The translations under genes were made by a program, and so were the position numbers. Shown here in pieces: positions 13,864 through 58,519 of a stretch of DNA of 64,000 bases (position 1 is its first letter; each line of letters opens with the position of its first letter). This DNA comes from Pseudomonadota bacterium (GTDB lineage: Bacteria > Pseudomonadota > Gammaproteobacteria > Burkholderiales > Thiobacillaceae): the NCBI GenBank assembly GCA_030691265.1, contig JAUYET010000075.1, positions 880-64,879 on the forward strand, written 5' to 3'. The notes beneath the pieces are model-generated. The model was not told the origin of the DNA, made no database searches, and saw nothing but the letters and a program-made list of their open reading frames with translations.

Positions 13864-13960
13864 GAAAGACGCGAAGCGCCTTCTCGAAGCTCCCCTCTCC
13901 CGCATGCGGGAGAGGGGTTGGGGGTGAGGGAAACGGGCATGGCGCAGGCTTTCATGATTC
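13864..13960. repeat. Composite repeat X, copy 1 (inverted orientation)
   Basis: cccctctcccgcatgcgggagagggg palindrome plus flanking ccctcaccccca and aaacgggcatggcg segments, shared with the copies at 15205 and 54899. Confidence 0.5.
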
Positions 13961-15204: not shown

Positions 15205-15290
15205 CAAATCCCTCACCCCTAGCCCCTCTCCCGCTTGCGGGAGAGGGGAACTTCGAGCGTCGCTGTGCGACGTTCACGTTGAAACTGGAG
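15205..15290. repeat. Composite repeat X, copy 2
   Basis: ccctcacccctagcccctctcccgcttgcgggagaggggaacttcgagcgtcgctgtgcgacgttcac, immediately upstream of mshE. Confidence 0.5.
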
Positions 15291-49992: not shown

Positions 49993-51306
49993 ATGAAAAC
50001 ACTGCCCAAAATCGGCTTCGTCTCCCTCGGTTGCCCGAAGGCCACGGTCGACTCGGAACACATCCTGACGCAACTGCGCGCCGAGGGTTACCTGATCGTT
50101 CCCACCTACCAGGATGCCGATCTGGTGGTGGTCAACACCTGCGGCTTCATCGACGCGGCGGTGGAAGAAAGTCTGGATGCGATCGGCGAAGCGTTGCGCG
50201 AAAACGGCAAGGTCATCGTCACCGGCTGCCTGGGCGCACGTGAAAACGTGGTCATGGACGCTCACCCGCAAGTCCTGGCAATCACCGGCCCGCACGCGGC
50301 GGAAGAGGTCATGCGCCATGTCCATGCCCATCTGCCCAAACCGCACGACCCCTTTATCGACCTCGTCCCGCCCGGCGGCGTCAAACTTACCCCGCGCCAT
50401 TACGCTTATCTGAAGATTTCCGAGGGCTGCAATCATCGCTGCACCTTCTGCATCATCCCCAGCCTGCGCGGCGATCTGGTCTCGCGCCCGATCGGCGACG
50501 TGCTGTCGGAGGCCGAGGCGCTGGTCAAAGCCGGCGTCAAGGAATTGCTGATTATTTCTCAAGATACAAGCGCTTACGGCGTTGACTTGAAGTATCGCCT
50601 TGGCTTTCATAACGGCCGCCCGGTTAAAACACGCATGCTGGAACTGGTGCAGGAACTATCCAAACTCGGCGTCTGGGTGCGTCTGCATTATGTCTATCCG
50701 TACCCTAGCGTCGATGACGTGATTCCGCTGATGGCCGAGGGCAAGGTGCTGCCGTATCTCGACATTCCGTTTCAGCACGCCAGCCCGCGCATCCTGAAAG
50801 CCATGAAGCGCCCGGCGCACGCCGAAAACACGCTGCGCCGGATCGAAAAATGGCGCGAGATTTGCCCCGATATCGTGATACGCAGCACCTTCATCACCGG
50901 TTTCCCCGGTGAAACGGAAGACGACTTCGGCGAGTTGTTGCACTTCCTGCAAGCCGCCAAACTCGACCGCGTCGGGGCTTTTCCTTATTCCGCCGTCGAA
51001 GGCGCGGTCGCCAACGCGCTGCCCGACCCGGTCGAGGAAGACCTCAAACACGACCGCCTGGCCCGTTTCATGGACGTGCAAGCCGACATCAGCATGGAAA
51101 AACTCAAGGCCCGACGCGGCACGGAAATGACCGTATTGATCGACGCAGCCGATGGCCGTCGCGCGCTCGGGCGCACCTATGCCGACGCGCCGGAGATCGA
51201 CGGCGTGGTGCACATCGCGCAGGGTGCTGGCTTGCAGGCGGGGGATTTCGTGCAAGTGAAGATCACCCGTAGCGATGATTACGACCTGTGGGGAAAGCCG
51301 GTCTAA
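49993..51306 (+). CDS. rimO: Ribosomal protein S12 methylthiotransferase RimO
   Basis: [10 protein letters not shown], radical-SAM CNHRCTFC, and a TRAM domain. Confidence 0.9.
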
Positions 51307-51337
51307 AATTTCGCCCTGGTTTTTTCCGGGAATGCCC

Positions 51338-53923
51338 ATGTCGCACAAGATCAAAACCAAACCAGGCAAACTGCCGTCACCGCATGTGCTCGACAGCGCC
51401 ACGCTGGCGGCTCAGGCCGAGGCGGATTTAGCGCTGACGCGTTACAAGGAGGCGACCGAGCTTTTCAAGGAGTTGCTCAAGCGCGAGCGGCGTGCTACCT
51501 GGGTTGATGGCCTGGCCGCGTGTTACGCCGGGCGCGCCCATGCGCTGGCAGGCAAGGGCATGTTCAAGGAAGCGCTGGTGTTATGGCGCAACCGTCATGA
51601 ACGGTGCGGCAAACCGCTCGCTGAGGCGCCTTATCTGGCCTGGCTGCTGCAGGCGGGAGAGCTGGGTGAAGCGATGCGCCTGCTGGCTGACCCCACCTTG
51701 CCGGACGCGATGCGCAGCGAACTGGAAATGCGCTTTGCCGCCATGACGCTGACCTGGCCGGACAACAAACTGCCTGAGCTATCGTCACAACTGCCCGCCG
51801 ACAGCGCGCTCCTGCGCCACCGTCCGGCTGCACTGGCTGCTTTGCAGGCCTGCCAGCAAGGCGACCTCGCCGCCCTGGACGAATGCCTCAAGGCGATTCC
51901 GATTCGTTCGCCGTATCGCGATCTGAAGCCGCTGCTCAAGGCGCTGGCGCTGCTGACAACGGATCGCGCAGCGGCCGCCGTGATGATCGCCCGCCTGCCG
52001 TCGAACAGCCCGTTCGAGCGACTGGCCGCGGTATTGCGCGCCGCGGTCTTGCCAGCGGAGCCGTTGGCGGCTATGCCGCCTTACGGAACCGGCGCGCCTT
52101 TTACGGGTGCCGATACGTGTTGGTTGGCGGCGTTGCCTGATATGGACGCAGATAGCCGGCAACTGCTGCTCGATCTCAAAGGTTGCCCCGACGCGCTGCG
52201 ACCGCTGCTGCTGGACCTCGCCCGCCTGGGTGCACAGCCCAACCCCGAAACCTGGTTCGACTTTCTCCTGCGCCATCGGCGCGCACTGCCAGCCGGTCTG
52301 GCGGCGAATCTGTGCCAGCGCTTGCTGCCGCATGTGCCGCATCGGCTGAAGGTCCATGGCGATACCTTCGGTCAACTCACGGAACTGCAGTGGACGCATA
52401 TCGCAGCTCTGAATGCCGAGGTGCAAAACAAACGTACTTTGGCTATGCCGCATTGGCAGCGCATGGCCGAACTTCTGGCCAGCGATTCCACCCAGAAGCA
52501 GCGCGCGGCGCTGATCTGGCGACGCCTGTCCGGTATCGATATTGCCGCTCTGGGTGATAGCGATGCAGATGTGATCTATCGCTTGAAGCGCAGCGTCGAA
52601 CTCGATCCCGATGAACGCGACACCCAGTTACGGCTGATCGCTGCACTTCGCCAACAGGGTGAACTGCAGCAGGCGCGCACCGTCCTGGAGCAGGCGTTGC
52701 CGCGGTTCCCCAAGGATGCAGCCCTGTTGCTGGAAGCCGTGCAGGTCGCCCTCGCCAGCAAAGCATTCAAGAAAGCCGTCGGGCTGGCCAAGCAGGTGCT
52801 GGAACTCGATCCGATCAACCCGACGGTACGGCGGCTGATCGGCCATGCCCACTTTGCTCACGCGCGCAAGCAGATCAAAACGAACAACTCGGCTGCGGCG
52901 CACAAAGAGCTGGATGCGGCGGCGACCTGGTTGCGCAACGCGGAAGATGCCGTGACGCTCAAGCTGTTGCGCGCCCTGGCCTGCGATGGGCAGACCGACG
53001 AGCAGACCGATGCGCGCATTCGCGAAGCCATCGCCGATCTGGGCGGCGGCATGGTGGGTAACCTCGCCGGCAACCTTGCGGGCGCTTTCCATCTGGCGCT
53101 GGAAGCAGGCCGGCTGGGGATGAATGAGACCACGCTGTTGAAACGCGGCGGCGTCGATCTGAACGCCACGCCAGCCCCCGGTGCGATGCTGGCGCTGGCC
53201 CGGGTGGTCGAAGCCGCGGGTGAAACCGGGAAAGCGGTGCGCGCCGCCTTGCTTCCCCTGCGCCCGGCGCTCAAACGGGCAGCGGCCGGCCGCTATGTAG
53301 AGGCCGATATGGCCTCGATTTGCGAGGCGTTTCTACGCGTCGAGGAATACGACTTGCTGCGTCTTTATGCCGATGCCGCGTTGAAACATTGGCCGCAGCG
53401 GCCGCTGTTTGTCTATTTCAAGGCGGCGTCTTTCGCCGATAAGCCCTACCTCATGCCACAGCATGTGCGAAATGACCTTGATCGCGCCGCCGAGGCCTGC
53501 CAGCAAAATGACCGGCGCACCGGGCAGCGTATTCAGAGCCTGTTTCATGCGATCGAAGACGAGATGCCCTTCGCGGATGACGACAACGATATCGACGGGT
53601 TGAACGCGGACGATCCAGGCATGCTGTTTGAAATGCTGCTGCAAATAGGCGGCGAGGAATTGGTATTCAAAACGGCGCGCCAGGCGATGGGCAAGGCCAC
53701 GTTCGATGCACTGAGGAAGGAGCTGGGCGGCAGCAACAAGGACTTCGCCCACGCCCTGGTCGACTTGCTGGCGCAAGAAGCGCGTGGCGGCGGCATTCCG
53801 CCGCCACCGTTAATACTGCCGCCATTCACCAAATCCATACCTGAACCAGCCAAACCCAAACCGCCTAAGCCCGTGCCACATAAGCCCGCGCCGGATAACC
53901 AGGGAAATCTGTTCGATGACTGA
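51338..53923 (+). CDS. Large (~860 aa) helical TPR-like protein with a Pro/Lys-rich tail ending QGNLFDD
   Basis: Repeated amphipathic helix pairs (for example ELQQARTVLEQALPRFPKDAALLLEAVQVALASKAFKKAVGLAKQVLELDPINP). No catalytic motif seen. The start is at 51332 or 51338. Confidence 0.45.
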   Translation: MSHKIKTKPGKLPSPHVLDSATLAAQAEADLALTRYKEATELFKELLKRERRATWVDGLAACYAGRAHALAGKGMFKEALVLWRNRHERCGKPLAEAPYLAWLLQAGELGEAMRLLADPTLPDAMRSELEMRFAAMTLTWPDNKLPELSSQLPADSALLRHRPAALAALQACQQGDLAALDECLKAIPIRSPYRDLKPLLKALALLTTDRAAAAVMIARLPSNSPFERLAAVLRAAVLPAEPLAAMPPYGTGAPFTGADTCWLAALPDMDADSRQLLLDLKGCPDALRPLLLDLARLGAQPNPETWFDFLLRHRRALPAGLAANLCQRLLPHVPHRLKVHGDTFGQLTELQWTHIAALNAEVQNKRTLAMPHWQRMAELLASDSTQKQRAALIWRRLSGIDIAALGDSDADVIYRLKRSVELDPDERDTQLRLIAALRQQGELQQARTVLEQALPRFPKDAALLLEAVQVALASKAFKKAVGLAKQVLELDPINPTVRRLIGHAHFAHARKQIKTNNSAAAHKELDAAATWLRNAEDAVTLKLLRALACDGQTDEQTDARIREAIADLGGGMVGNLAGNLAGAFHLALEAGRLGMNETTLLKRGGVDLNATPAPGAMLALARVVEAAGETGKAVRAALLPLRPALKRAAAGRYVEADMASICEAFLRVEEYDLLRLYADAALKHWPQRPLFVYFKAASFADKPYLMPQHVRNDLDRAAEACQQNDRRTGQRIQSLFHAIEDEMPFADDDNDIDGLNADDPGMLFEMLLQIGGEELVFKTARQAMGKATFDALRKELGGSNKDFAHALVDLLAQEARGGGIPPPPLILPPFTKSIPEPAKPKPPKPVPHKPAPDNQGNLFDD

Positions 53924-54263
53924 TCCTTACCGCCTGCTTGGCGTGCCTGACCGGGCCTATGAGAAAACGGCCGAAGACGATGCCGATTTTGACGAAATCA
54001 TCCGCCAGGCTTATCTGGCGGCGATCCGCGAGTGCCCGCCCGAGCGTGACCGTCAACGCTTCGAGCGGATACGCGCTGCTTTTGAGGCCATCGCCAGCGC
54101 CCGTGCGCGCCTGAGCCATGCCCTGTTCGACACCACGCCGCCCACGCCGGAAGATTTGCTGGCCGCGCTGCAAACCGAATTTCAGCCGCAGCGTCCGTCG
54201 GAGCAGCGTTTGTGCCGGGTGTTGGGGAGCACATTGGGGAGCGCATCGGGGAGCAAAACATGA
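53916..54263 (+). CDS. J-like domain protein lacking the HPD motif
   Basis: DPYRLLGV...IRQAYLAAIRECPPERD..FERIRAAFEAI aligns to J-domain helices I-III, with PPE in place of HPD. It overlaps the upstream stop by 8 nt. Confidence 0.55.
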   Translation: MTDPYRLLGVPDRAYEKTAEDDADFDEIIRQAYLAAIRECPPERDRQRFERIRAAFEAIASARARLSHALFDTTPPTPEDLLAALQTEFQPQRPSEQRLCRVLGSTLGSASGSKT

Positions 54264-54916
54264 TCCTGGAAGCCGAGAAGGAACGTTTGATCGAGGAATT
54301 CCGCGCCTGCCTGGAAGACTGGGAGGGCGGCGAGAACGAAGAAGATAGCGCCCCCGTCGATCTGCATACCTTGCTGGCCGAAATGGCCGCGCTGAAGAAC
54401 GAAATCCGTCTGGAGTCGCGCCAGTTCAAGACCATGCTGGAAGAAATGCGCCACTTCGGTGAAGCCCTGCGCGAACAGAACGAACGCCTGAATCGCGATC
54501 TGGAGCGGGTGCGCGAACAGGCCGCCGTCGCCAAACGCCAGGCCGAACGCGGTTTGCTGCTGGGCCTGCTCGATCTGCGCGATCGCTTGCAAGCTGGCGT
54601 CGATGCCGGCGGCTTGCCCCAATCCTCATTTCTGGTGCGACTATTCCCGACCCAGACACGCCTTATCCGCAGCCTGGTGCAGGGCCAGACACTCACCGTG
54701 CAGCGCATGGATGAATTGCTGGCCGAACATCAGGTGCGCCCGCTCGAAGCCATCGGCCAGATGCTCGACCCACATCAGATGCGCGCCGTGGGCGTCGAAA
54801 CTGCACTAGACAAACCGGATGGGCAGGTGCTGCGCGAAGTGCGCTGCGGTTTTTATCATCACGGCGAGCTGCTGCGCACCGCCGAAGTCATCGTCAACAA
54901 AACGGGCATGGCGTGA
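54260..54916 (+). CDS. GrpE-like nucleotide exchange factor
   Basis: Long coiled coil, then FDPHQMRAVGVE...GQVLREVRCGFYHHGELLRTAEVIVNK (GrpE C-terminal beta domain pattern). ATGA overlap upstream. Confidence 0.65.
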   Translation: MILEAEKERLIEEFRACLEDWEGGENEEDSAPVDLHTLLAEMAALKNEIRLESRQFKTMLEEMRHFGEALREQNERLNRDLERVREQAAVAKRQAERGLLLGLLDLRDRLQAGVDAGGLPQSSFLVRLFPTQTRLIRSLVQGQTLTVQRMDELLAEHQVRPLEAIGQMLDPHQMRAVGVETALDKPDGQVLREVRCGFYHHGELLRTAEVIVNKTGMA

Positions 54917-55025
54917 GGCATTCAGAATAATGAACGCCTCACGCCATGCCCGTTTCCCTCTCCCCCAGCCCCTCTCCCGCCTGCGGGAGAGGGGAGTTTC
55001 AAGCGTCGCTATCACGACGTTTACA
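54899..55025. repeat. 20-bp perfect hairpin (54900-54919 / 54936-54955) plus composite repeat X copy 3
   Basis: aaacgggcatggcgtgaggc-N16-gcctcacgccatgcccgttt, followed by ccctctcccccagcccctctcccgcctgcgggagaggggagtttcaagcgtcgctatcacgacgtttac. Confidence 0.8.
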
Positions 55026-55027
55026 TT

Positions 55028-56803
55028 ATGGACATCATGAACATGCGTGAAATCATCGTTGGTATCGATCTGGGCACCACCAATTCCGAAGTCGCCGTGG
55101 TGCGCGACGGACGCGTGGAAGTCATCGCCATCAGCGAGGGAGAGCGCATTTTGCCCTCGATGGTCGGCTTGGCCGATGACGGCGCCCTGCTGGTCGGCGA
55201 GGCAGCCCGCAACCAGTATGTGCTGCGCCCAGAACGCACGGTGCGCTCGATCAAACGGCGCATGGGCGAAGCCACCCACGTCGCCCTGGGCGACAAGAAT
55301 TACAGTCCGCAGGAAATCTCCGCGCTGATTCTGCGTCGGCTCAAGCAGATCGCCGAAGGCCACCTGGGACAGCCGGTGAACAAGGCGGTGATTACCGTGC
55401 CGGCCTATTTTTCCGACGCGCAACGCCAGGCCACCCGCGAAGCTGGGGAAATCGCCGGACTGGAAGTGGTGCGCATCATCAACGAACCCACCGCCGCGGC
55501 GCTGGCTTACGAAAGCGGGCATCAAGGCGCGCGCAAAGCGCTGGTTTACGACCTCGGCGGCGGTACTTTCGACGTCTCCGTGGTCAACCTGGAAGGCGAC
55601 GTGGTGGAAGTGCTCGCCAGCCACGGCAACAACCACCTGGGCGGCGACGACTTCGACCAGCGGATTGTCGATTTCGCCCTCGATCACATCGAGGCGCAAA
55701 ACGGCATCGAGGTTGTTCAAGCCGTGCGCCACTCGGCCATTGCCATGGCGCGCCTGCAACGCGCCGCCGAGGCCGCCAAAATCGCGCTGTCGGATCGCCC
55801 CTATGCCATGCTGGCCGAGGAGTATCTGCTGCAACATCAAGGCGAACCGGTGCATCTGGCGGTGGAACTCGCCCGCGCCGATTACGAGGCGATGATCGCG
55901 CCCTACATCGCCGAAACGCTTGACGCCACCCATATCGCGCTGGCCGGGGCGCATCTGACGGTATCGGATATCGACGAAATCCTGCTGGTCGGCGGCGCCA
56001 CCCGCACGCCGCTGGTCGCCCGCCGACTGGAAGAAACGCTGGGCATGGCGCCACGCGGCGAACTGAATCCCGATCTCTGCGTGGCCATGGGTGCAGCCAT
56101 CCAGGCCGGGGTCATCAGCGGCGAGCAGATCGCCTCGGTGCTGGTCGATGTCACCCCCTACACCTTCGGCACCGCCGCCATCAGCTTTCTGGACGGCGAA
56201 GAATATCCCTACTGCTTCGTTCCCCTGATCCGCAAGAACACGCCGATTCCGGTCACCAAGAGCGAGGTTTTTTACACCGCCTACGATGGTCAGGCGCGGA
56301 TCGATGTGGGGGTGTTTCAGGGCGAAGATCGCGACGCACTCAACAACATCGAAATCGGCATGTTCACGATCGACGGCCTGCGCGCCGACGCGCCCTCTGG
56401 CAGCCGCATCGTCACCAGTTTCTCGCTCGACCTCGATGGCATTCTTCACGTCACCACGCGGGAAAAAGAAACCGGGCTGGAACGCTCCATCACCATCACC
56501 ATCGCCAACGCCCTGGCACGCCTGGAAACCGACCAGCTCGACGCTGCGCGTGAACGGGTGCGGGCTTTGTTCGGCGAAGATTCCGAAGGGGAGGGCGACA
56601 GCACCGACTTGCGCCGTCATCGGGTGGAAGCCCTGGCCCTGGTGGAAAAGGCGGAACGTCTGCTGCAGACCGCTAGCGCGGAAGATGGCGAAGACCTGGT
56701 CAACGGCATCGAAGCCGTCAGGGATGCCCTCGACCAAAACGATGAAATGTTGAAAATGACCATGGGCAGCCTGGCCGACCTGCTTTATTACCTGGAAGCC
56801 TGA
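55028..56803 (+). CDS. Hsp70-family ATPase (non-housekeeping, HscC-like architecture)
   Basis: IVGIDLGTTNS, VITVPAYFSDAQRQAT, DLGGGTFDVS, LLVGGATRTP motifs, with an SBD-beta and a helical lid. Start alternatives at 55037 and 55043. Confidence 0.85.
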   Translation: MDIMNMREIIVGIDLGTTNSEVAVVRDGRVEVIAISEGERILPSMVGLADDGALLVGEAARNQYVLRPERTVRSIKRRMGEATHVALGDKNYSPQEISALILRRLKQIAEGHLGQPVNKAVITVPAYFSDAQRQATREAGEIAGLEVVRIINEPTAAALAYESGHQGARKALVYDLGGGTFDVSVVNLEGDVVEVLASHGNNHLGGDDFDQRIVDFALDHIEAQNGIEVVQAVRHSAIAMARLQRAAEAAKIALSDRPYAMLAEEYLLQHQGEPVHLAVELARADYEAMIAPYIAETLDATHIALAGAHLTVSDIDEILLVGGATRTPLVARRLEETLGMAPRGELNPDLCVAMGAAIQAGVISGEQIASVLVDVTPYTFGTAAISFLDGEEYPYCFVPLIRKNTPIPVTKSEVFYTAYDGQARIDVGVFQGEDRDALNNIEIGMFTIDGLRADAPSGSRIVTSFSLDLDGILHVTTREKETGLERSITITIANALARLETDQLDAARERVRALFGEDSEGEGDSTDLRRHRVEALALVEKAERLLQTASAEDGEDLVNGIEAVRDALDQNDEMLKMTMGSLADLLYYLEA

Positions 56804-56805
56804 AC

Positions 56806-57174
56806 GTGGATCGCTGCCCCTCCTGCCGCGCACGGCTGAACGAAAGCCCGCTCTGTTCGCGCTGCGGATGCGATCTGGGGCTGGCCCTGCGGGCAGAACG
56901 CCAGTCGCAAAACCTGCTCCGGCAGGGTATTCAGGCTTGGGCCGCCGGCAACCCAGACCTGGCGGCAAGCAGCTTCGACGCCTCGCTGGCCTTGCGGCAT
57001 AGCACGTTGGCGGCAAGGCTGGCGGCTAAGCGCAGCGAACTGCGCCGTGAACTGTTCAATCGGCAAGACGACATCGAAGCCCAGCGGAATGATCTAATCA
57101 CCGAGCTGGAGCAGCAGCTTCAGCATCAAATCCAAGAAGAAACGCTGTTCACAATTGAATGGGAGTTGAATTAA
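56806..57174 (+). CDS. Zinc-ribbon protein with a helical/coiled-coil C-terminus
   Basis: CPSC-x10-CSRC at the N-terminus. The GTG start lies 2 nt after the Hsp70 stop. Confidence 0.45.
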   Translation: MDRCPSCRARLNESPLCSRCGCDLGLALRAERQSQNLLRQGIQAWAAGNPDLAASSFDASLALRHSTLAARLAAKRSELRRELFNRQDDIEAQRNDLITELEQQLQHQIQEETLFTIEWELN

Positions 57175-57488
57175 TGGCCAAGAAGGGTGAGGTCACCATT
57201 GTCGGGCAAACGTTCGAGGGACTGAAGCAGATCAATGAGCGTGGCGCTGAATACTGGAGCGCCCGCGCCCTCCAGCCCTTGCTGGGTTACAGCCAGTGGC
57301 GGCATTTCGTGCAGGCCATCGAGCGCGCCATAACCTCTTGTAACAAATCAGGAAATCTTTTCGGGTATCACTTTGCCGGCGCCGGCAAACCGATCGCCGG
57401 CGGCAAGGGCGCGGTTCAGGTCGTGGATGACTACCACCTCTCCCGCTTCGCCTGCTACCTCAGCGCCCAGGCTGGGGGGCTGCCATGA
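57174..57488 (+). CDS. DinD-like N-terminal domain protein (truncated relative to the ~270-aa DinD)
   Basis: INERGAEYWSARALQPLLGYSQWRHF ... VVDDYHLSRFACYLSAQ matches the first ~100 aa of E. coli DinD as I recall it. TAATG overlap upstream. Confidence 0.55.
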   Translation: MAKKGEVTIVGQTFEGLKQINERGAEYWSARALQPLLGYSQWRHFVQAIERAITSCNKSGNLFGYHFAGAGKPIAGGKGAVQVVDDYHLSRFACYLSAQAGGLP

Positions 57489-58327
57489 AAAACCGCATCA
57501 TTACCGTCAAAGGGGTAGAGGTCGCCATTGCCGTCCGGCATGAGCAGGACTACATCTCGCTCACCGACATGCTCAGAAACTTTGGCGACGAAAGCATCCT
57601 GTACAACTGGCTGCGCAACCGGAACACCATAGAATTTCTCGGCATTTGGGAGCAGCTCTACAACCCGGGTTTTAAACCTATCGAATTCGATAGGTTTAGG
57701 AGCCAGGCGGGGCTGAATAGCTTTGCCCTCTCACCCAAGAAGTGGATCGAGGCCACCGGCGCCATTGGCCTGTATGCCAAGGCAGGTCGAGGCGGCGGAA
57801 CCTTTGCCCACCGCGACATCGCCTTCGAGTTCGGCTCCTGGCTCAGTCCGGAGTTCAAGCTCTACCTCATCAAGGAGTTTCAGCGTCTCAAGGACGAAGA
57901 AGCGCGCGCCACCGCCCAGGAGTGGAACTTTCAGCGCACGCTGGCCAAGGTCAACTACAAAATTCACACCGATGCCATCAAGGAACGCCTCATCCCACCG
58001 CTTCTGACCAAAGCGCAGACCAGCATGGTGTACGCCAACGAGGCGGATTTACTCAACGTCGCCCTGTTCGGCATCACCGCCGCCCAATGGCGGCAAGCCA
58101 ACCCAGACCAGCCGGGCAACATGCGTGACGCCGCCACACTGGAACAACTGGTGGTGTTGTCGAACCTGGAAAGCATCAACGCCGTGCTGATTCACCAAGA
58201 GCTGGATGTACATGAGCGACTGGCGCAGTTGAACACCATGGCCATTACGCAAATGCGCTCGTTGGTCGGCATGAGCGCAGTCAAGCGGCTGGGTGGAAAA
58301 AATCCCCTGAAGGGAATCGAGCCATGA
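57485..58327 (+). CDS. KilA-N domain-containing protein
   Basis: ITVKGVEVAI...DYISLTDM...GTFAHRDIAFEFGSWLSPEFKLYLIKEF. ATGA overlap upstream. Confidence 0.75.
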   Translation: MKNRIITVKGVEVAIAVRHEQDYISLTDMLRNFGDESILYNWLRNRNTIEFLGIWEQLYNPGFKPIEFDRFRSQAGLNSFALSPKKWIEATGAIGLYAKAGRGGGTFAHRDIAFEFGSWLSPEFKLYLIKEFQRLKDEEARATAQEWNFQRTLAKVNYKIHTDAIKERLIPPLLTKAQTSMVYANEADLLNVALFGITAAQWRQANPDQPGNMRDAATLEQLVVLSNLESINAVLIHQELDVHERLAQLNTMAITQMRSLVGMSAVKRLGGKNPLKGIEP

Positions 58328-58407
58328 CCGAACCCACCATCACCTGCCCGAACTGCCGATGTGGTGCTGTCTGGCTAGTCAAAATTCACACAAGCCCCCA
58401 AGAATGA
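58324..58407 (+). pseudogene. 27-codon remnant of a zinc-ribbon-type gene
   Basis: MTEPTITCPNCRCGAVWLVKIHTSPQE. ATGA overlap with the KilA-N stop. Too short to be a complete protein of this type. Confidence 0.3.
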
Positions 58408-58519
58408 CAGGCTCGAATCTATCAGCTTTGGGGTGCGGCACGTTGAAACGGAGTGTGTCGCTGGCATCAACGAGTACTGCCCCACATCACCGTCCACTAC
58501 TCAGCCTGATCCAACCTTC

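What the first reader, a model, noticed from the sequence alone, without database searches (positions are those of the whole stretch)
51338..57174. Accessory, non-canonical Hsp70 module: giant TPR-like protein, HPD-less J-like protein, GrpE-like protein, Hsp70 and a zinc-ribbon protein in one coupled operon
Five same-strand genes are joined by overlapping or abutting junctions:
- an 8-nt overlap at 53916-53923;
- ATGA at 54260-54263;
- the Hsp70 stop at 56801-56803, followed by GTG at 56806;
- TAATG at 57172-57176, leading into the next gene.

A housekeeping dnaK locus is grpE-dnaK-dnaJ, with an HPD J-domain and a zinc-finger DnaJ. Here every partner is atypical:
- the J-like protein has PPE instead of HPD;
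- the GrpE-like and Hsp70 proteins are divergent;
- an ~860-aa TPR scaffold and a small zinc-ribbon protein are added.

The block sits between housekeeping rimO and nudix-mnmA and is followed by phage-type DinD-N and KilA-N genes, so it looks like an accessory insertion. A weak imperfect direct repeat could mark island ends, but it could easily be chance: gtc(t)aaaatt(t)c at 51301-51312 and 58379-58388.

The only characterised analogues I can name are E. coli HscC with DjlB/DjlC, and Myxococcus SglK/GrpS, an Hsp70/GrpE pair needed for pilus-dependent social motility. Neither has this gene set.

Hypothesis: a dedicated chaperone machine that remodels or senses through the TPR protein, possibly a conflict/defence or surface-structure assembly module.
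Basis: partly seen in the sequence, partly recalled or inferred. Interest (0 to 1): 0.75.

Follow-up and report, generated by a model that had tools for sequence, protein, structure and literature searches.

The report
Private five-gene Hsp70 chaperone module
This is a real, conserved five-gene operon in beta- and gammaproteobacteria that encodes a second, private Hsp70 chaperone machine: a giant TPR scaffold, a J-protein that has lost the canonical HPD motif, its own GrpE, an Hsp70 and a small zinc-ribbon protein; what it acts on is unknown and I found no description of it.

Summary
Window 51338-57174 encodes, on one strand:
- an 861-aa TPR solenoid;
- a 115-aa J-domain homologue with PPE in place of HPD;
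- a GrpE-family protein;
- a 591-aa Hsp70 that scores below the DnaK, HscA and HscC-type cut-offs;
- a zinc-ribbon plus TPR-hairpin protein.

The same five genes, in the same order, occur in practically every sufficiently long locus of 79 fetched from beta- and gammaproteobacterial species. Their flanks differ between lineages, and all five genes are under purifying selection.

The J-like/Hsp70 interface is changed on both partners, while the catalytic and allosteric residues are invariant. This looks like a co-evolved private pair, not a decayed J domain.

The TPR protein ends in a disordered Pro-rich tail. In most members the tail carries a conserved C-terminal motif, QxxLF(DD), that resembles the beta-clamp-binding motif. 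This is an untested lead.

The defence and island reading is not supported:
- no PADLOC hit;
- no plasmid or phage copy;
- mostly housekeeping flanks in the loci whose neighbours were annotated.

The DinD-N/KilA-N genes are a separate 1.5-kb insertion that is absent from the closest relative.

Verdict: an undescribed variant of the specialised Hsp70 systems, with unknown client.

The parts
51338..53923 (+). TPR scaffold protein, 861 aa. All-alpha TPR-like solenoid (residues ~14-742), acidic disordered linker (744-757), three-helix domain (760-815), disordered Pro/Lys-rich tail (818-861).
   Evidence: Pfam TPR_19/TPR_14. Full-length family of ~800-870 aa: 120 listed hits and 513 representatives at E<=1e-30. 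AF2 model with pLDDT 84. Foldseek finds only generic large TPR scaffolds at TM ~0.2. dN/dS 0.33.
53900..53920 (+). C-terminal short linear motif QGNLFDD-COOH at the end of the disordered tail of the TPR protein.
   Evidence: Q855, L858, F859 and D860 are nearly invariant in alignment A3. Qxx[LFM]F[DN][DE]-COOH occurs in 43 of 73 loci and QxDLF-COOH in 4 more. The tail has low pLDDT, so it is not docked intramolecularly in the model.
53916..54263 (+). J-like protein, 115 aa. J-domain homologue with PPE (residues 41-43, nt 54036-54044) in place of HPD, plus a conserved ~35-aa C-terminal segment.
   Evidence: The family profile hits the E. coli DjlB/DjlC/DnaJ J domains at 37-39 bits. Relatives carry precomputed Pfam DnaJ hits. 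Position H33 is P in 71/72, P34 is P in 72/72, D35 is E in 61 and D in 11. The gene overlaps the TPR gene by 8 nt.
54260..54916 (+). GrpE-family nucleotide-exchange factor, 218 aa. Divergent, with an N-terminal coiled coil.
   Evidence: Pfam GrpE 76 bits against a cut-off of 25.8. Best NCBIfam GrpE equivalog 32.6 bits against a cut-off of 231. 27% identity to E. coli GrpE over 79 aa. ATGA overlap with the J-like gene.
54904..55027 (.). Window-specific intergenic insertion between GrpE and Hsp70. It has a hairpin with a stem of about 24 bp (one internal mismatch) overlapping the GrpE stop (54904-54951) and a REP-like palindrome CCCTCTCCCGCCTGCGGGAGAGGGG (54970-54994).
   Evidence: Sequence. RNA fold -81 kcal/mol, z = -12.6. 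The palindrome family also occurs at 13892 and 15223, with 0 expected by chance. Absent from L007, where GrpE and Hsp70 abut.
55028..56803 (+). Specialised Hsp70, 591 aa. It has a full NBD, linker, SBD-beta and lid, with no disordered C-terminal tail. It carries a 24-aa deletion in NBD subdomain IB and an 8-9-aa insertion in SBD-beta loop L1,2.
   Evidence: Pfam HSP70 481 bits. NCBIfam DnaK scores 542 and 530 are below the cut-offs of 648 and 822; HscA 399 is below 708. Identity is 41% to E. coli DnaK, 38% to HscA and 36% to HscC. Residue census. dN/dS 0.10-0.16.
56806..57174 (+). Zinc-ribbon + TPR-like hairpin protein (ZnR), 122 aa here. The conserved part is residues 1-~70 (nt 56806-57013): CPxC-x9-CxRC, then two helices. 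The rest comes from the adjacent insertion.
   Evidence: R3, C4, C7, R10, C17, R19, C20 (and P5 in A5, D23 in A4) are invariant. Found after the Hsp70 gene in 72 loci including the window, and inside the module in the one outlying member whose context was checked. AF2 pLDDT 95. No significant PDB fold match. Only sub-threshold zinc-ribbon/TPR Pfam hits. dN/dS 0.21.

Best explanation
The region encodes a self-contained, chromosomally inherited, specialised Hsp70 machine that works beside the housekeeping DnaK system, not in place of it.

Proposed mechanism:
1. The five proteins are made together from a translationally coupled operon. (Shown: coupling and synteny.)
2. The Hsp70 is a competent ATP-driven clamp. 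All catalytic and allosteric relay residues are invariant. Its substrate cleft is remodelled by the L1,2 insertion and by I401T, S427Y/F and arch changes, which implies a narrow client range. (Shown: residues. Inferred: narrow range.)
3. The small J-like protein docks at the canonical J-site. R167, Q378, L391 and P419 on the Hsp70 are kept, as are the Pro and the carboxylate of the motif. However, the electrostatic contacts are lost on both partners, which insulates the pair from DnaJ and DnaK. Loss of the His, together with loss of the D326 and D481 'clamp' residues, suggests that ATP hydrolysis is gated differently from DnaK. (Shown: substitutions. Inferred: consequences.)
4. The dedicated GrpE resets the cycle. 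(Inferred from family membership.)
5. The 861-aa TPR solenoid is the platform that holds the client and/or the co-chaperones. Its flexible tail with a conserved C-terminal motif tethers the machine to a cellular hub. (Inferred.)
6. The zinc-ribbon/TPR-hairpin protein acts as an accessory or escort factor. (Inferred by analogy only.)

The client is unknown.
For: - Synteny: the five genes occur in the same order in practically every sufficiently long locus of 79 loci from Beta (Accumulibacter, Gallionella, Nitrosomonadales, Sulfuricellaceae, Paraburkholderia, Variovorax, Massilia, Polaromonas, Rhodoferax) and Gamma (Competibacteraceae, Sedimenticola, Thiomargarita, Chromatiales) species. Overlapping junctions are conserved.
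- No sixth gene is conserved beyond genus/family level.
- Purifying selection acts on all five genes.
- The Hsp70 scores below the DnaK and HscA equivalog cut-offs, and the GrpE far below its equivalog cut-offs.
- Hsp70 residues K70, P143, D148, R151, R167, N170, E171, T173, T199, D201, Q378, L391, D393, N415 and P419 are invariant in 71/71 sequences.
- Hsp70 residues that differ from DnaK: E206->N/G, D211 deleted, D477->S/A, D326->G, D481->N.
- Matching changes in the J-like protein: K26->L, R27->A/Q, K48->E/Q/A. The contact map is taken from PMC8215388.
- The J-like profile matches true J domains.
- TPR model and tail.
- ZnR was found inside the module in every context examined.
Against: - No experiment, expression data or interaction data exist.
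- The presence of a canonical dnaK locus in the same genomes could not be checked with these tools.
- Replacing the His of the HPD motif abolishes ATPase stimulation in every J-protein tested so far (PMC8215388; PMC13254874). The J-like protein may therefore recruit or inhibit rather than stimulate.
- No client, no enzymatic effector and no informative conserved neighbour was found.
- No sigma-32-type promoter was detected, but that was only a crude regex scan.
Confidence: 0.72

Rival explanations
1. It is an anti-phage or conflict system. In this reading an Hsp70/GrpE/J module serves as the NTP-dependent switch and the TPR protein as the sensor, analogous to the Hsp70-GrpE-DnaJ/TPR theme attached to GAP1-N2 GTPase systems.
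For: - Kaur et al. describe conflict systems with Hsp70 + GrpE + DnaJ- or TPR-fused proteins (PMC7159879).
- The module sits at different chromosomal places in different lineages.
- In the window it is next to DinD-N/KilA-N genes that match the PADLOC candidates PDC-S13 and PDC-S22.
- Transposases flank it in L001.
Against: - None of the five proteins hits PADLOC.
- There is no GTPase, no effector domain and no effector-associated domain.
- No neighbour is shared beyond narrow clades. The annotated flanks are mostly housekeeping: lepA, rpoE-rseAB-degP, aat/ate, rimO, nudix-mnmA. An HscA-like second Hsp70 gene lies upstream in L006 and L010.
- The TPR protein has no plasmid or phage copy.
- DinD-N/KilA-N are an independent insertion absent from the closest relative.
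- The module is present in all 13 Accumulibacter species-level loci fetched, with ordinary purifying selection and no hypervariable part.
Confidence: 0.08
2. It is a regulator of a surface structure or of exopolysaccharide/motility, like Myxococcus SglK/GrpS.
For: - SglK/GrpS is a GrpE-then-Hsp70 bicistron with a specialised role and a separately encoded J partner (bioRxiv 10.64898/2026.08.28.747804).
- A few loci have GGDEF genes beside or inside the module (L001, L046, L060, L073).
Against: - No pilus, EPS or motility gene turned up in the annotated flanks, and no recurrent neighbour exists outside narrow clades.
- A GGDEF gene lies within the fetched flanks in only 6 of 78 loci, which looks like no more than background, although no expected rate was computed.
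- The SglK system has no linked TPR, J-like or zinc-ribbon gene.
- Sequence relatedness to SglK was not tested.
Confidence: 0.08
3. It is simply the housekeeping grpE-dnaK-dnaJ locus of a divergent lineage.
For: NCBI names the J-like and GrpE proteins 'molecular chaperone DnaJ' and 'nucleotide exchange factor GrpE'. The best NCBIfam hit of the Hsp70 is DnaK.
Against: - All equivalog cut-offs are missed.
- Identity to E. coli DnaK is only 41%.
- The J-like protein is 96-115 aa, with no HPD, G/F region, zinc-finger or C-terminal domains.
- Gene order and extra genes differ from the housekeeping locus.
- No heat-shock promoter motif was found.
- The distribution among fetched Burkholderiales is patchy.
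Confidence: 0.02

Closest known systems
E. coli HscC with DjlB/DjlC (hscC locus, with the Sel1-repeat proteins YbeQ/YbeT)
   Same: - A specialised Hsp70 with private J-proteins encoded next to it.
- The J domains share the short loop and a Glu at the third motif position (HPE against PPE). They align without gaps to the J-like profile at 36-38 bits.
- TPR-like (Sel1) repeat genes lie in the same locus.
- HPE is the only HPD variant so far known to be tolerated (PMC13254874).
   Different: - HscC works without a nucleotide-exchange factor (PMC8215388). Here a GrpE gene is part of the operon.
- DjlB and DjlC are ~480-aa tail-anchored membrane proteins and keep the His. The J-like protein here is 96-115 aa and has Pro at that position.
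- The Hsp70 is only 36% identical to HscC, less than its identity to DnaK.
- The hscC locus has no 860-aa solenoid and no zinc-ribbon gene.
Housekeeping DnaK-DnaJ-GrpE
   Same: Same three protein families. The catalytic, linker and allosteric residues of the Hsp70 are conserved, and a GrpE-type exchange factor is used.
   Different: - Scores fall below all equivalog cut-offs.
- The J partner lacks HPD, the G/F region, the zinc finger and the client-binding domains.
- J-site salt bridges are lost on both partners.
- The substrate cleft is remodelled.
- Two extra dedicated genes are present.
Mitochondrial import motor PAM (mtHsp70, Mge1, Pam18, Pam16, Tim44, Zim17/Hep1)
   Same: The same cast by analogy: Hsp70 + GrpE-type NEF + HPD-less J-like protein (Pam16, DKE; PMC13254874) + scaffold + small zinc-ribbon escort protein. 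That Zim17/Hep1 is a zinc-ribbon escort rests on my own knowledge of that protein.
   Different: - There is no true HPD J-protein (Pam18 equivalent) in the operon.
- The scaffold is a TPR solenoid, not Tim44.
- The zinc ribbon has a different spacing and no zf-DNL match.
- No membrane or translocon component is present.
- This is an analogy only; homology of the accessory parts is not shown.
Myxococcus xanthus GrpS-SglK
   Same: An accessory GrpE-then-Hsp70 gene pair with a specialised, non-proteostasis role.
   Different: The J partner is unlinked (SgmC is the predicted partner), and no TPR or zinc-ribbon gene is linked. Sequence relationship was not tested here.
GAP1-N2 GTPase conflict systems with Hsp70/GrpE/DnaJ- or TPR-fused FNIII proteins (Kaur et al. 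2020)
   Same: Hsp70 + GrpE + J-domain and/or TPR proteins occur in one accessory neighbourhood.
   Different: Those systems are defined by a GAP1-N2 GTPase and FNIII-repeat proteins and are found mainly in actinobacteria and firmicutes. None of these features is present here.
Mycobacterial Ruc (Rv0991c)
   Same: A small zinc-ribbon protein genetically linked to Hsp70-system genes and acting with DnaK/DnaJ/GrpE (PMC7448276).
   Different: Ruc has a longer CxxC-x17-CxxC ribbon and a disordered hydrophilic tail. ZnR has CPxC-x9-CxRC followed by a structured TPR-like hairpin. Homology was not tested.

Membership tests
DnaK (housekeeping Hsp70, NCBIfam equivalogs NF001413 / TIGR02350) | Score at or above the curated equivalog cut-off | tested here: not met
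   542.2 against 648, and 529.7 against 822.55.
DnaK-DnaJ-GrpE housekeeping system | J partner with an HPD motif, G/F region, zinc-finger domain and C-terminal client-binding domains | tested here: not met
   The J-like protein is 96-115 aa. The motif is PP[E/D] in 71/72. Pfam DnaJ scores only 17 bits in the window member, and no other domain is found.
DnaK-DnaJ-GrpE housekeeping system | It is the only dnaK/grpE locus of the genome | not testable with these tools
   Only +/-10 kb around each hit could be read. The window holds one Hsp70 gene. L006 and L010 carry a second Hsp70 homologue, an HscA-like hit at 41% identity, a few kb upstream.
GrpE (Pfam PF01025) | Score at or above the Pfam gathering cut-off | tested here: met
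   76.1 bits against 25.8. All NCBIfam GrpE equivalog cut-offs are missed, with a best score of 32.6 against 231.
Hsp70 (Pfam PF00012), functional ATPase | Catalytic and allosteric residues K70, E171, T199, D201, P143, D148, R151 and linker D393 | tested here: met
   All are invariant in 71/71 family members.
J-domain protein, canonical (classes A-C) | HPD tripeptide in the helix II-III loop | tested here: not met
   H33 is P in 71/72; D35 is E in 61 and D in 11.
Type IV / pseudo-J-domain protein (recognisable J domain, HPD replaced) | J-domain homology with a non-conservative HPD replacement | tested here: met
   The family profile matches the DnaJ, DjlB and DjlC J domains at 37-39 bits. Motif PP[E/D]. 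Definition taken from PMC13254874.
HscA/HscB Fe-S chaperone | HscA equivalog score and isc-operon context | tested here: not met
   399.5 against 708.55. No isc genes lie beside the module in the window. The HscB J domain is not matched by the profile.
HscC/DjlB/DjlC | NEF-independent Hsp70, large tail-anchored HPE J-proteins, DUF1266/Sel1 neighbours | tested here: not met
   A GrpE gene is inside the operon. The J-like protein is small and has no membrane anchor. Identity to HscC is 36%.
GAP1-N2 GTPase-centred conflict system | GAP1-N2 GTPase and FNIII-repeat protein in the neighbourhood | tested here: not met
   No GTPase or FNIII domain is found among the five proteins. No neighbour is conserved beyond narrow clades. 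Description.
Known or candidate anti-phage systems (PADLOC-DB 2.0) | Any component matches a PADLOC model | tested here: not met
   No hits for the five proteins. Only the adjacent DinD-N and KilA-N genes hit PDC-S13 and PDC-S22.
Beta-clamp-binding proteins | Clamp-binding motif Q-phi-x-[L/M]-[F/L] in a disordered or terminal segment, and physical binding to DnaN | tested here: inconclusive
   The motif is terminal and conserved. Q, L and F fit, and four gamma members have QLDLF, QMDLF or QYDLF at the C-terminus. Position 2 is mostly K/R/G rather than aliphatic, and 16 loci (chiefly Competibacteraceae) have a basic arginine-rich C-terminus instead. Binding is not testable here. Motif definition from PMC11139829.

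The most novel reading that the evidence does not exclude
The module is an Hsp70 remodelling machine tethered to the replisome. The TPR scaffold would dock on the beta sliding clamp through its C-terminal QxxLF(DD) clamp-binding-like motif at the end of a ~45-residue flexible tail. It would bring a private Hsp70/GrpE/J-like engine to clamp-bound or DNA-bound protein complexes in order to disassemble or recycle them. This would be the first chaperone known to be a clamp client. It would also be a natural case of a functional, selected HPD-less J-protein.
Probability: 0.18. Interest if true: 0.88.

Novelty: new variant of a known kind. Interest (0 to 1): 0.62.

Why it matters
- Reviews describe three kinds of prokaryotic Hsp70 (DnaK, HscA, HscC). 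They state that the specialised ones have dispensed with a nucleotide-exchange factor (PMC8215388). This module is a specialised Hsp70 that keeps a private GrpE.
- Whether HPD-less 'type IV' J-proteins are evolutionary accidents or are selected is called enigmatic (PMC13254874). Here an HPD-less J-protein is strictly conserved across two proteobacterial classes, is genetically welded to its own Hsp70, and shows reciprocal changes at the interface. That makes the question testable in a simple bacterial system, because isolates carry the module (Variovorax paradoxus ISL-79, Massilia glaciei B448-2, Polaromonas glacialis R3-9, Paraburkholderia sp. SIMBA_030).
- If the tail motif really binds the sliding clamp, it would link Hsp70 remodelling directly to the replisome.
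- The module is also present in all 13 Accumulibacter species-level loci fetched, and in Competibacteraceae, the key organisms of phosphorus-removal wastewater plants.

Tried and rejected
- PADLOC scan of all five proteins: nothing.
- tblastn of the TPR protein against plasmids and phages: nothing.
- Sequence search of the TPR and ZnR proteins against PDB chains: only consensus or designed TPRs, and one chance hit.
- Foldseek of both AF2 models against the PDB: generic TPR scaffolds at TM ~0.2, and no significant hit for ZnR.
- Clustering of flank ORFs across 78 loci to find a sixth conserved gene or a hint to the client: only clade-specific neighbours. These are an ORF of about 970 aa (not annotated) upstream in Competibacteraceae, and an ABC transporter plus aat/ate in Accumulibacter.
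- GGDEF association: 6 of 78 loci, which looks like background, though no expected rate was computed.
- Conserved sigma-32 or sigma-54 promoter upstream: 1 of 75 each, by a crude regex.
- Empty-site test with rimO relatives from metagenomes: apart from one truncated contig at 91%, all are <=74% identical. None has the module or nudix-mnmA beside rimO, so no insertion/deletion comparison was possible.
It was redone with database proteins.
- Multimer prediction was not possible with the tool.
- The conserved Hsp70 C-terminus LADLLYYLE was first considered as an EEVD-like docking motif. It aligns with the last lid helix of DnaK, so it is more likely structural.
- Literature searches on Hsp70/GrpE/TPR operons, SglK/GrpS, HscC/Djl, DnaK paralogues in Accumulibacter, and J-domain surveys found no description of this gene set.

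Full report
**1. Observation**

The + strand of window 51338-57174 holds five ORFs:
- a TPR protein, 51338-53923, 861 aa;
- a J-like protein, 53916-54263, 115 aa;
- a GrpE-like protein, 54260-54916, 218 aa;
- an Hsp70, 55028-56803, 591 aa;
- a zinc-ribbon protein (ZnR), 56806-57174, 122 aa.

Pfam and NCBIfam give the following:
- TPR_19/TPR_14 for the first protein;
- a sub-threshold DnaJ hit (17 bits) for the second;
- GrpE (76 bits) for the third;
- HSP70 (481 bits) for the fourth;
- nothing for the fifth.

The two genes are separated by 111 nt. This spacer carries a hairpin with a stem of about 24 bp that overlaps the GrpE stop. It also carries a REP-like palindrome that recurs at 13892 and 15223. 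The spacer is specific to this genome: in the closest relative the two genes abut.

**2. It is a conserved module, not a chance arrangement**

The TPR protein belongs to a full-length family of about 800-870 aa. The family has 513 representatives at E<=1e-30 among 1.84 billion cluster representatives.

A scan of one genome per species returned 79 loci:
- Betaproteobacteria: 13 Accumulibacter species-level loci, plus Propionivibrio, Gallionella, Nitrosomonadales, Sulfuricellaceae, Thiobacillus, Paraburkholderia, Variovorax, Massilia, Polaromonas, Rhodoferax and Rubrivivax.
- Gammaproteobacteria: Competibacter/Contendobacter, Sedimenticola, Thiomargarita and Chromatiales.

tblastn with the five window proteins finds all five, in the same order and on the same strand, in practically every locus long enough to hold them. 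Gene calls in three relatives show the same overlapping junctions.

ZnR lies directly after the Hsp70 gene in 72 loci, counting the window. A profile search for ZnR returned 237 proteins with no Pfam domain and no informative name. The one outlying member whose context I checked, labelled Phycisphaerales, is also inside the module.

Flanking genes are shared only within genera or families. The five genes are therefore the whole conserved unit.

Pairwise dN/dS against two relatives:

| Gene | dN/dS |
|---|---|
| TPR | 0.33 |
| J-like | 0.24 |
| GrpE | 0.18-0.34 |
| Hsp70 | 0.10-0.16 |
| ZnR, residues 1-70 | 0.21 |

All five are real genes under constraint.

**3. The 'island' reading**

The closest relative is L007, a Burkholderiales MAG whose RimO is 93% identical. 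It has rimO-TPR-J-GrpE-Hsp70-ZnR-nudix-mnmA with no DinD-N or KilA-N.

DNA alignment shows that window 57014-58517 replaces 86 nt of L007. This stretch has a G+C of about 0.57, against 0.63 for the module. The insertion begins inside the 3' end of the ZnR gene, so ZnR residues beyond ~70 are foreign.

The second copy of the proposed direct repeat lies inside this insertion, so it cannot bound the module.

Other evidence against a mobile or defence island:
- The TPR protein has no match in the plasmid or phage collections.
- None of the five proteins matches PADLOC. Only DinD-N (PDC-S13) and KilA-N (PDC-S22, 431 bits) do.
- The flanks that were annotated or identified by similarity are mostly housekeeping: lepA and rpoE-rseAB-degP; aat/ate; rimO, nudix and mnmA. 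L001 has transposases upstream.

The module is thus a chromosomal, vertically retained unit whose position differs between lineages. The phage-type genes are a later, unrelated insertion.

**4. The Hsp70**

It is 41% identical to E. coli DnaK, 38% to HscA and 36% to HscC. It misses the DnaK and HscA equivalog cut-offs.

Relative to DnaK it has:
- a 24-residue deletion in NBD subdomain IB;
- a family-conserved insertion of 8-9 residues in SBD-beta loop L1,2, next to the substrate arch;
- no disordered C-terminal tail.

In 71 family members the residues K70, P143, D148, R151, R167, N170, E171, T173, T199, D201, Q378, L391, D393, N415 and P419 are invariant. It is therefore an allosterically coupled ATPase. 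Cleft residues differ from DnaK: I401T, T403A, S427Y/F, and a variable A429.

**5. The J-like protein**

A profile of 72 members matches the J domains of E. coli DjlB, DjlC and DnaJ at 37-39 bits, but not HscB. It is a true J-domain homologue, with the short helix II-III loop of the DjlB/DjlC type.

The HPD position reads P (71/72), P (72/72), then E (61) or D (11).

The DnaK-DnaJ contact map summarised in PMC8215388 lists these contacts:
- H33 to the L391 carbonyl;
- P34 to P419;
- D35 to R167 and Q378;
- K26 and R27 to E206 and D211;
- K48 to D477.

Against that map, the family keeps the Pro and the carboxylate together with their Hsp70 partners. It has lost the His. It has also lost the electrostatic pairs on both sides:
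- in the J-like protein, K26->L (71/72), R27->A/Q and K48->E/Q/A;
- in the Hsp70, E206->N/G, D211 deleted and D477->S/A.

The two residues that clamp the ATP state, D326 and D481, are G in 68/71 and N in 55/71.

I read this as a co-evolved private pair, insulated from DnaJ and DnaK, with altered gating of hydrolysis. Whether the J-like protein stimulates, merely recruits, or restrains the Hsp70 cannot be decided here. A 2026 review states that HPE (DjlB/DjlC) is the only tolerated variant known. It also states that the meaning of HPD-less 'type IV' J-proteins is enigmatic.

**6. The TPR protein**

AF2 (24-sequence alignment, mean pLDDT 84) gives this architecture:
- a continuous all-helical solenoid, residues ~14-742;
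- an acidic disordered linker;
- a three-helix domain, residues 760-815;
- a disordered tail, residues 818-861.

Foldseek finds only generic large TPR scaffolds (Ctr9, Ski3, Naa15, APC subunits, TTC7) at TM ~0.2.

The tail is Pro-rich (median 16%, against 5% in the body). It ends in a conserved motif:
- Qxx[LFM]F[DN][DE]-COOH in 43 of 73 loci;
- QLDLF, QMDLF or QYDLF-COOH in four gamma loci;
- a different tail that ends in a basic, arginine-rich stretch in 16 loci, chiefly Competibacteraceae, many reading ...DLPLPFPGGRGGRGKRRS.

The first two forms resemble the beta-clamp-binding motif. That motif is Q-phi-x-[L/M]-[F/L]. Its best binder is QLDLF, it often lies at a C-terminus, and it usually has acidic flanks (PMC11139829). 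However, position 2 is usually K/R/G rather than aliphatic here. This is a lead, not a finding. An internal partner (TPR groove, Hsp70 SBD or ZnR) is equally possible.

**7. ZnR**

Invariant residues are R3, C4, P5, C7, R10, C17, R19 and C20. AF2 (pLDDT 95) gives a short zinc knuckle/ribbon followed by a helical hairpin. There is no significant PDB fold match. Only sub-threshold zinc-ribbon and TPR Pfam hits are found.

By analogy only, small zinc-ribbon partners of Hsp70 systems exist. One is Ruc in mycobacteria. Another is Zim17/Hep1 in mitochondria; that statement rests on my own knowledge.

**8. Comparison with known systems**

The gene set differs from each known system, as follows.
- **Housekeeping DnaK/DnaJ/GrpE:** cut-offs are missed, and there is no HPD or DnaJ architecture.
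- **HscA/HscB:** cut-off missed.
- **HscC/DjlB/DjlC:** that system is NEF-independent and has large membrane-anchored HPE J-proteins. It does share the J-domain subtype and TPR-like neighbours.
- **GrpS-SglK:** no linked J, TPR or zinc-ribbon gene.
- **GAP1-N2 conflict systems:** these need a GTPase and FNIII proteins.
- **Mitochondrial PAM motor:** the closest analogy in cast, namely Hsp70, GrpE-type NEF, HPD-less J-like protein, scaffold and zinc-ribbon escort. There is no evidence of homology for the accessory parts.

Literature searches found no description of this module. NCBI annotates its parts generically as 'molecular chaperone DnaJ', 'nucleotide exchange factor GrpE' and 'tetratricopeptide repeat protein'.

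**9. Verdict**

This is a real, conserved and, as far as I could find, undescribed variant of the specialised Hsp70 systems.
- Shown: synteny, selection, family memberships, interface re-wiring, and architecture of the scaffold and tail.
- Inferred: complex formation, insulation from DnaK/DnaJ, narrow client range, and tethering through the tail.
- Unknown: the client, the role of ZnR, and whether the same genomes also have a canonical dnaK locus, which could not be checked here.

Defence and surface-structure roles are not supported but are not excluded.

Noticed in passing
window 57014-58517: A 1.5-kb low-GC (~0.57) insertion that is absent from the closest relative L007. It carries a DinD-N/Bro-N-like gene (57174-57488; NCBIfam DinD N-terminal part; PADLOC PDC-S13) and a KilA-N gene (57485-58327; PADLOC PDC-S22, 431 bits over the whole profile). 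A possible 27-codon CxxC ORF starts at 58324. The insertion replaced the native 3' end of the zinc-ribbon gene and created a chimeric C-terminus. The KilA-N protein is ~50-54% identical to proteins of Streptococcus satellite phages, Staphylococcus phage EW and gut phage contigs.
   Followed up: partly
window 54904-55027; also 13892-13917 and 15223-15248: A REP-like palindrome family, CCCTCTCCCGC-nn-GCGGGAGAGGG, occurs at three sites in the window, with 0 expected by chance. One copy, together with a separate hairpin with a stem of about 24 bp, is inserted inside the operon between GrpE and Hsp70. There it could act as an attenuator or mRNA-stability element (RNA fold z = -12.6).
   Followed up: partly
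L060 11493-15914: In one Competibacteraceae-like MAG, a periplasmic-binding-protein gene and a 1080-aa PAS-GGDEF sensor gene sit between the GrpE and Hsp70 genes of the module. L001 and L046 have a GGDEF response-regulator gene about 1.5 kb downstream. Across all loci a GGDEF gene is nearby in only 6 of 78, which looks like no more than chance, though no expected rate was computed.
   Followed up: yes
L004, L021-L024, L031, L037, L065, L068 (Accumulibacter loci), immediately upstream of the TPR gene: In Accumulibacter the module follows the N-end-rule transferase genes aat (Leu/Phe-tRNA protein transferase) and ate (arginyl-transferase). This could be a clade-specific coincidence or a hint of a link to regulated proteolysis.
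   Followed up: no
L054 10774-13164: The GrpE-like and Hsp70 reading frames appear joined into a single 803-aa ORF in one MAG. This is either a frameshift or assembly error, or a natural GrpE-Hsp70 fusion.
   Followed up: no
L006 4456-5991 and L010 646-2181 (minus strand): A second Hsp70 homologue, 41% identical to the module's Hsp70 and HscA-like in extent, lies a few kb upstream of the module. At least these genomes therefore carry more than one Hsp70.
   Followed up: no
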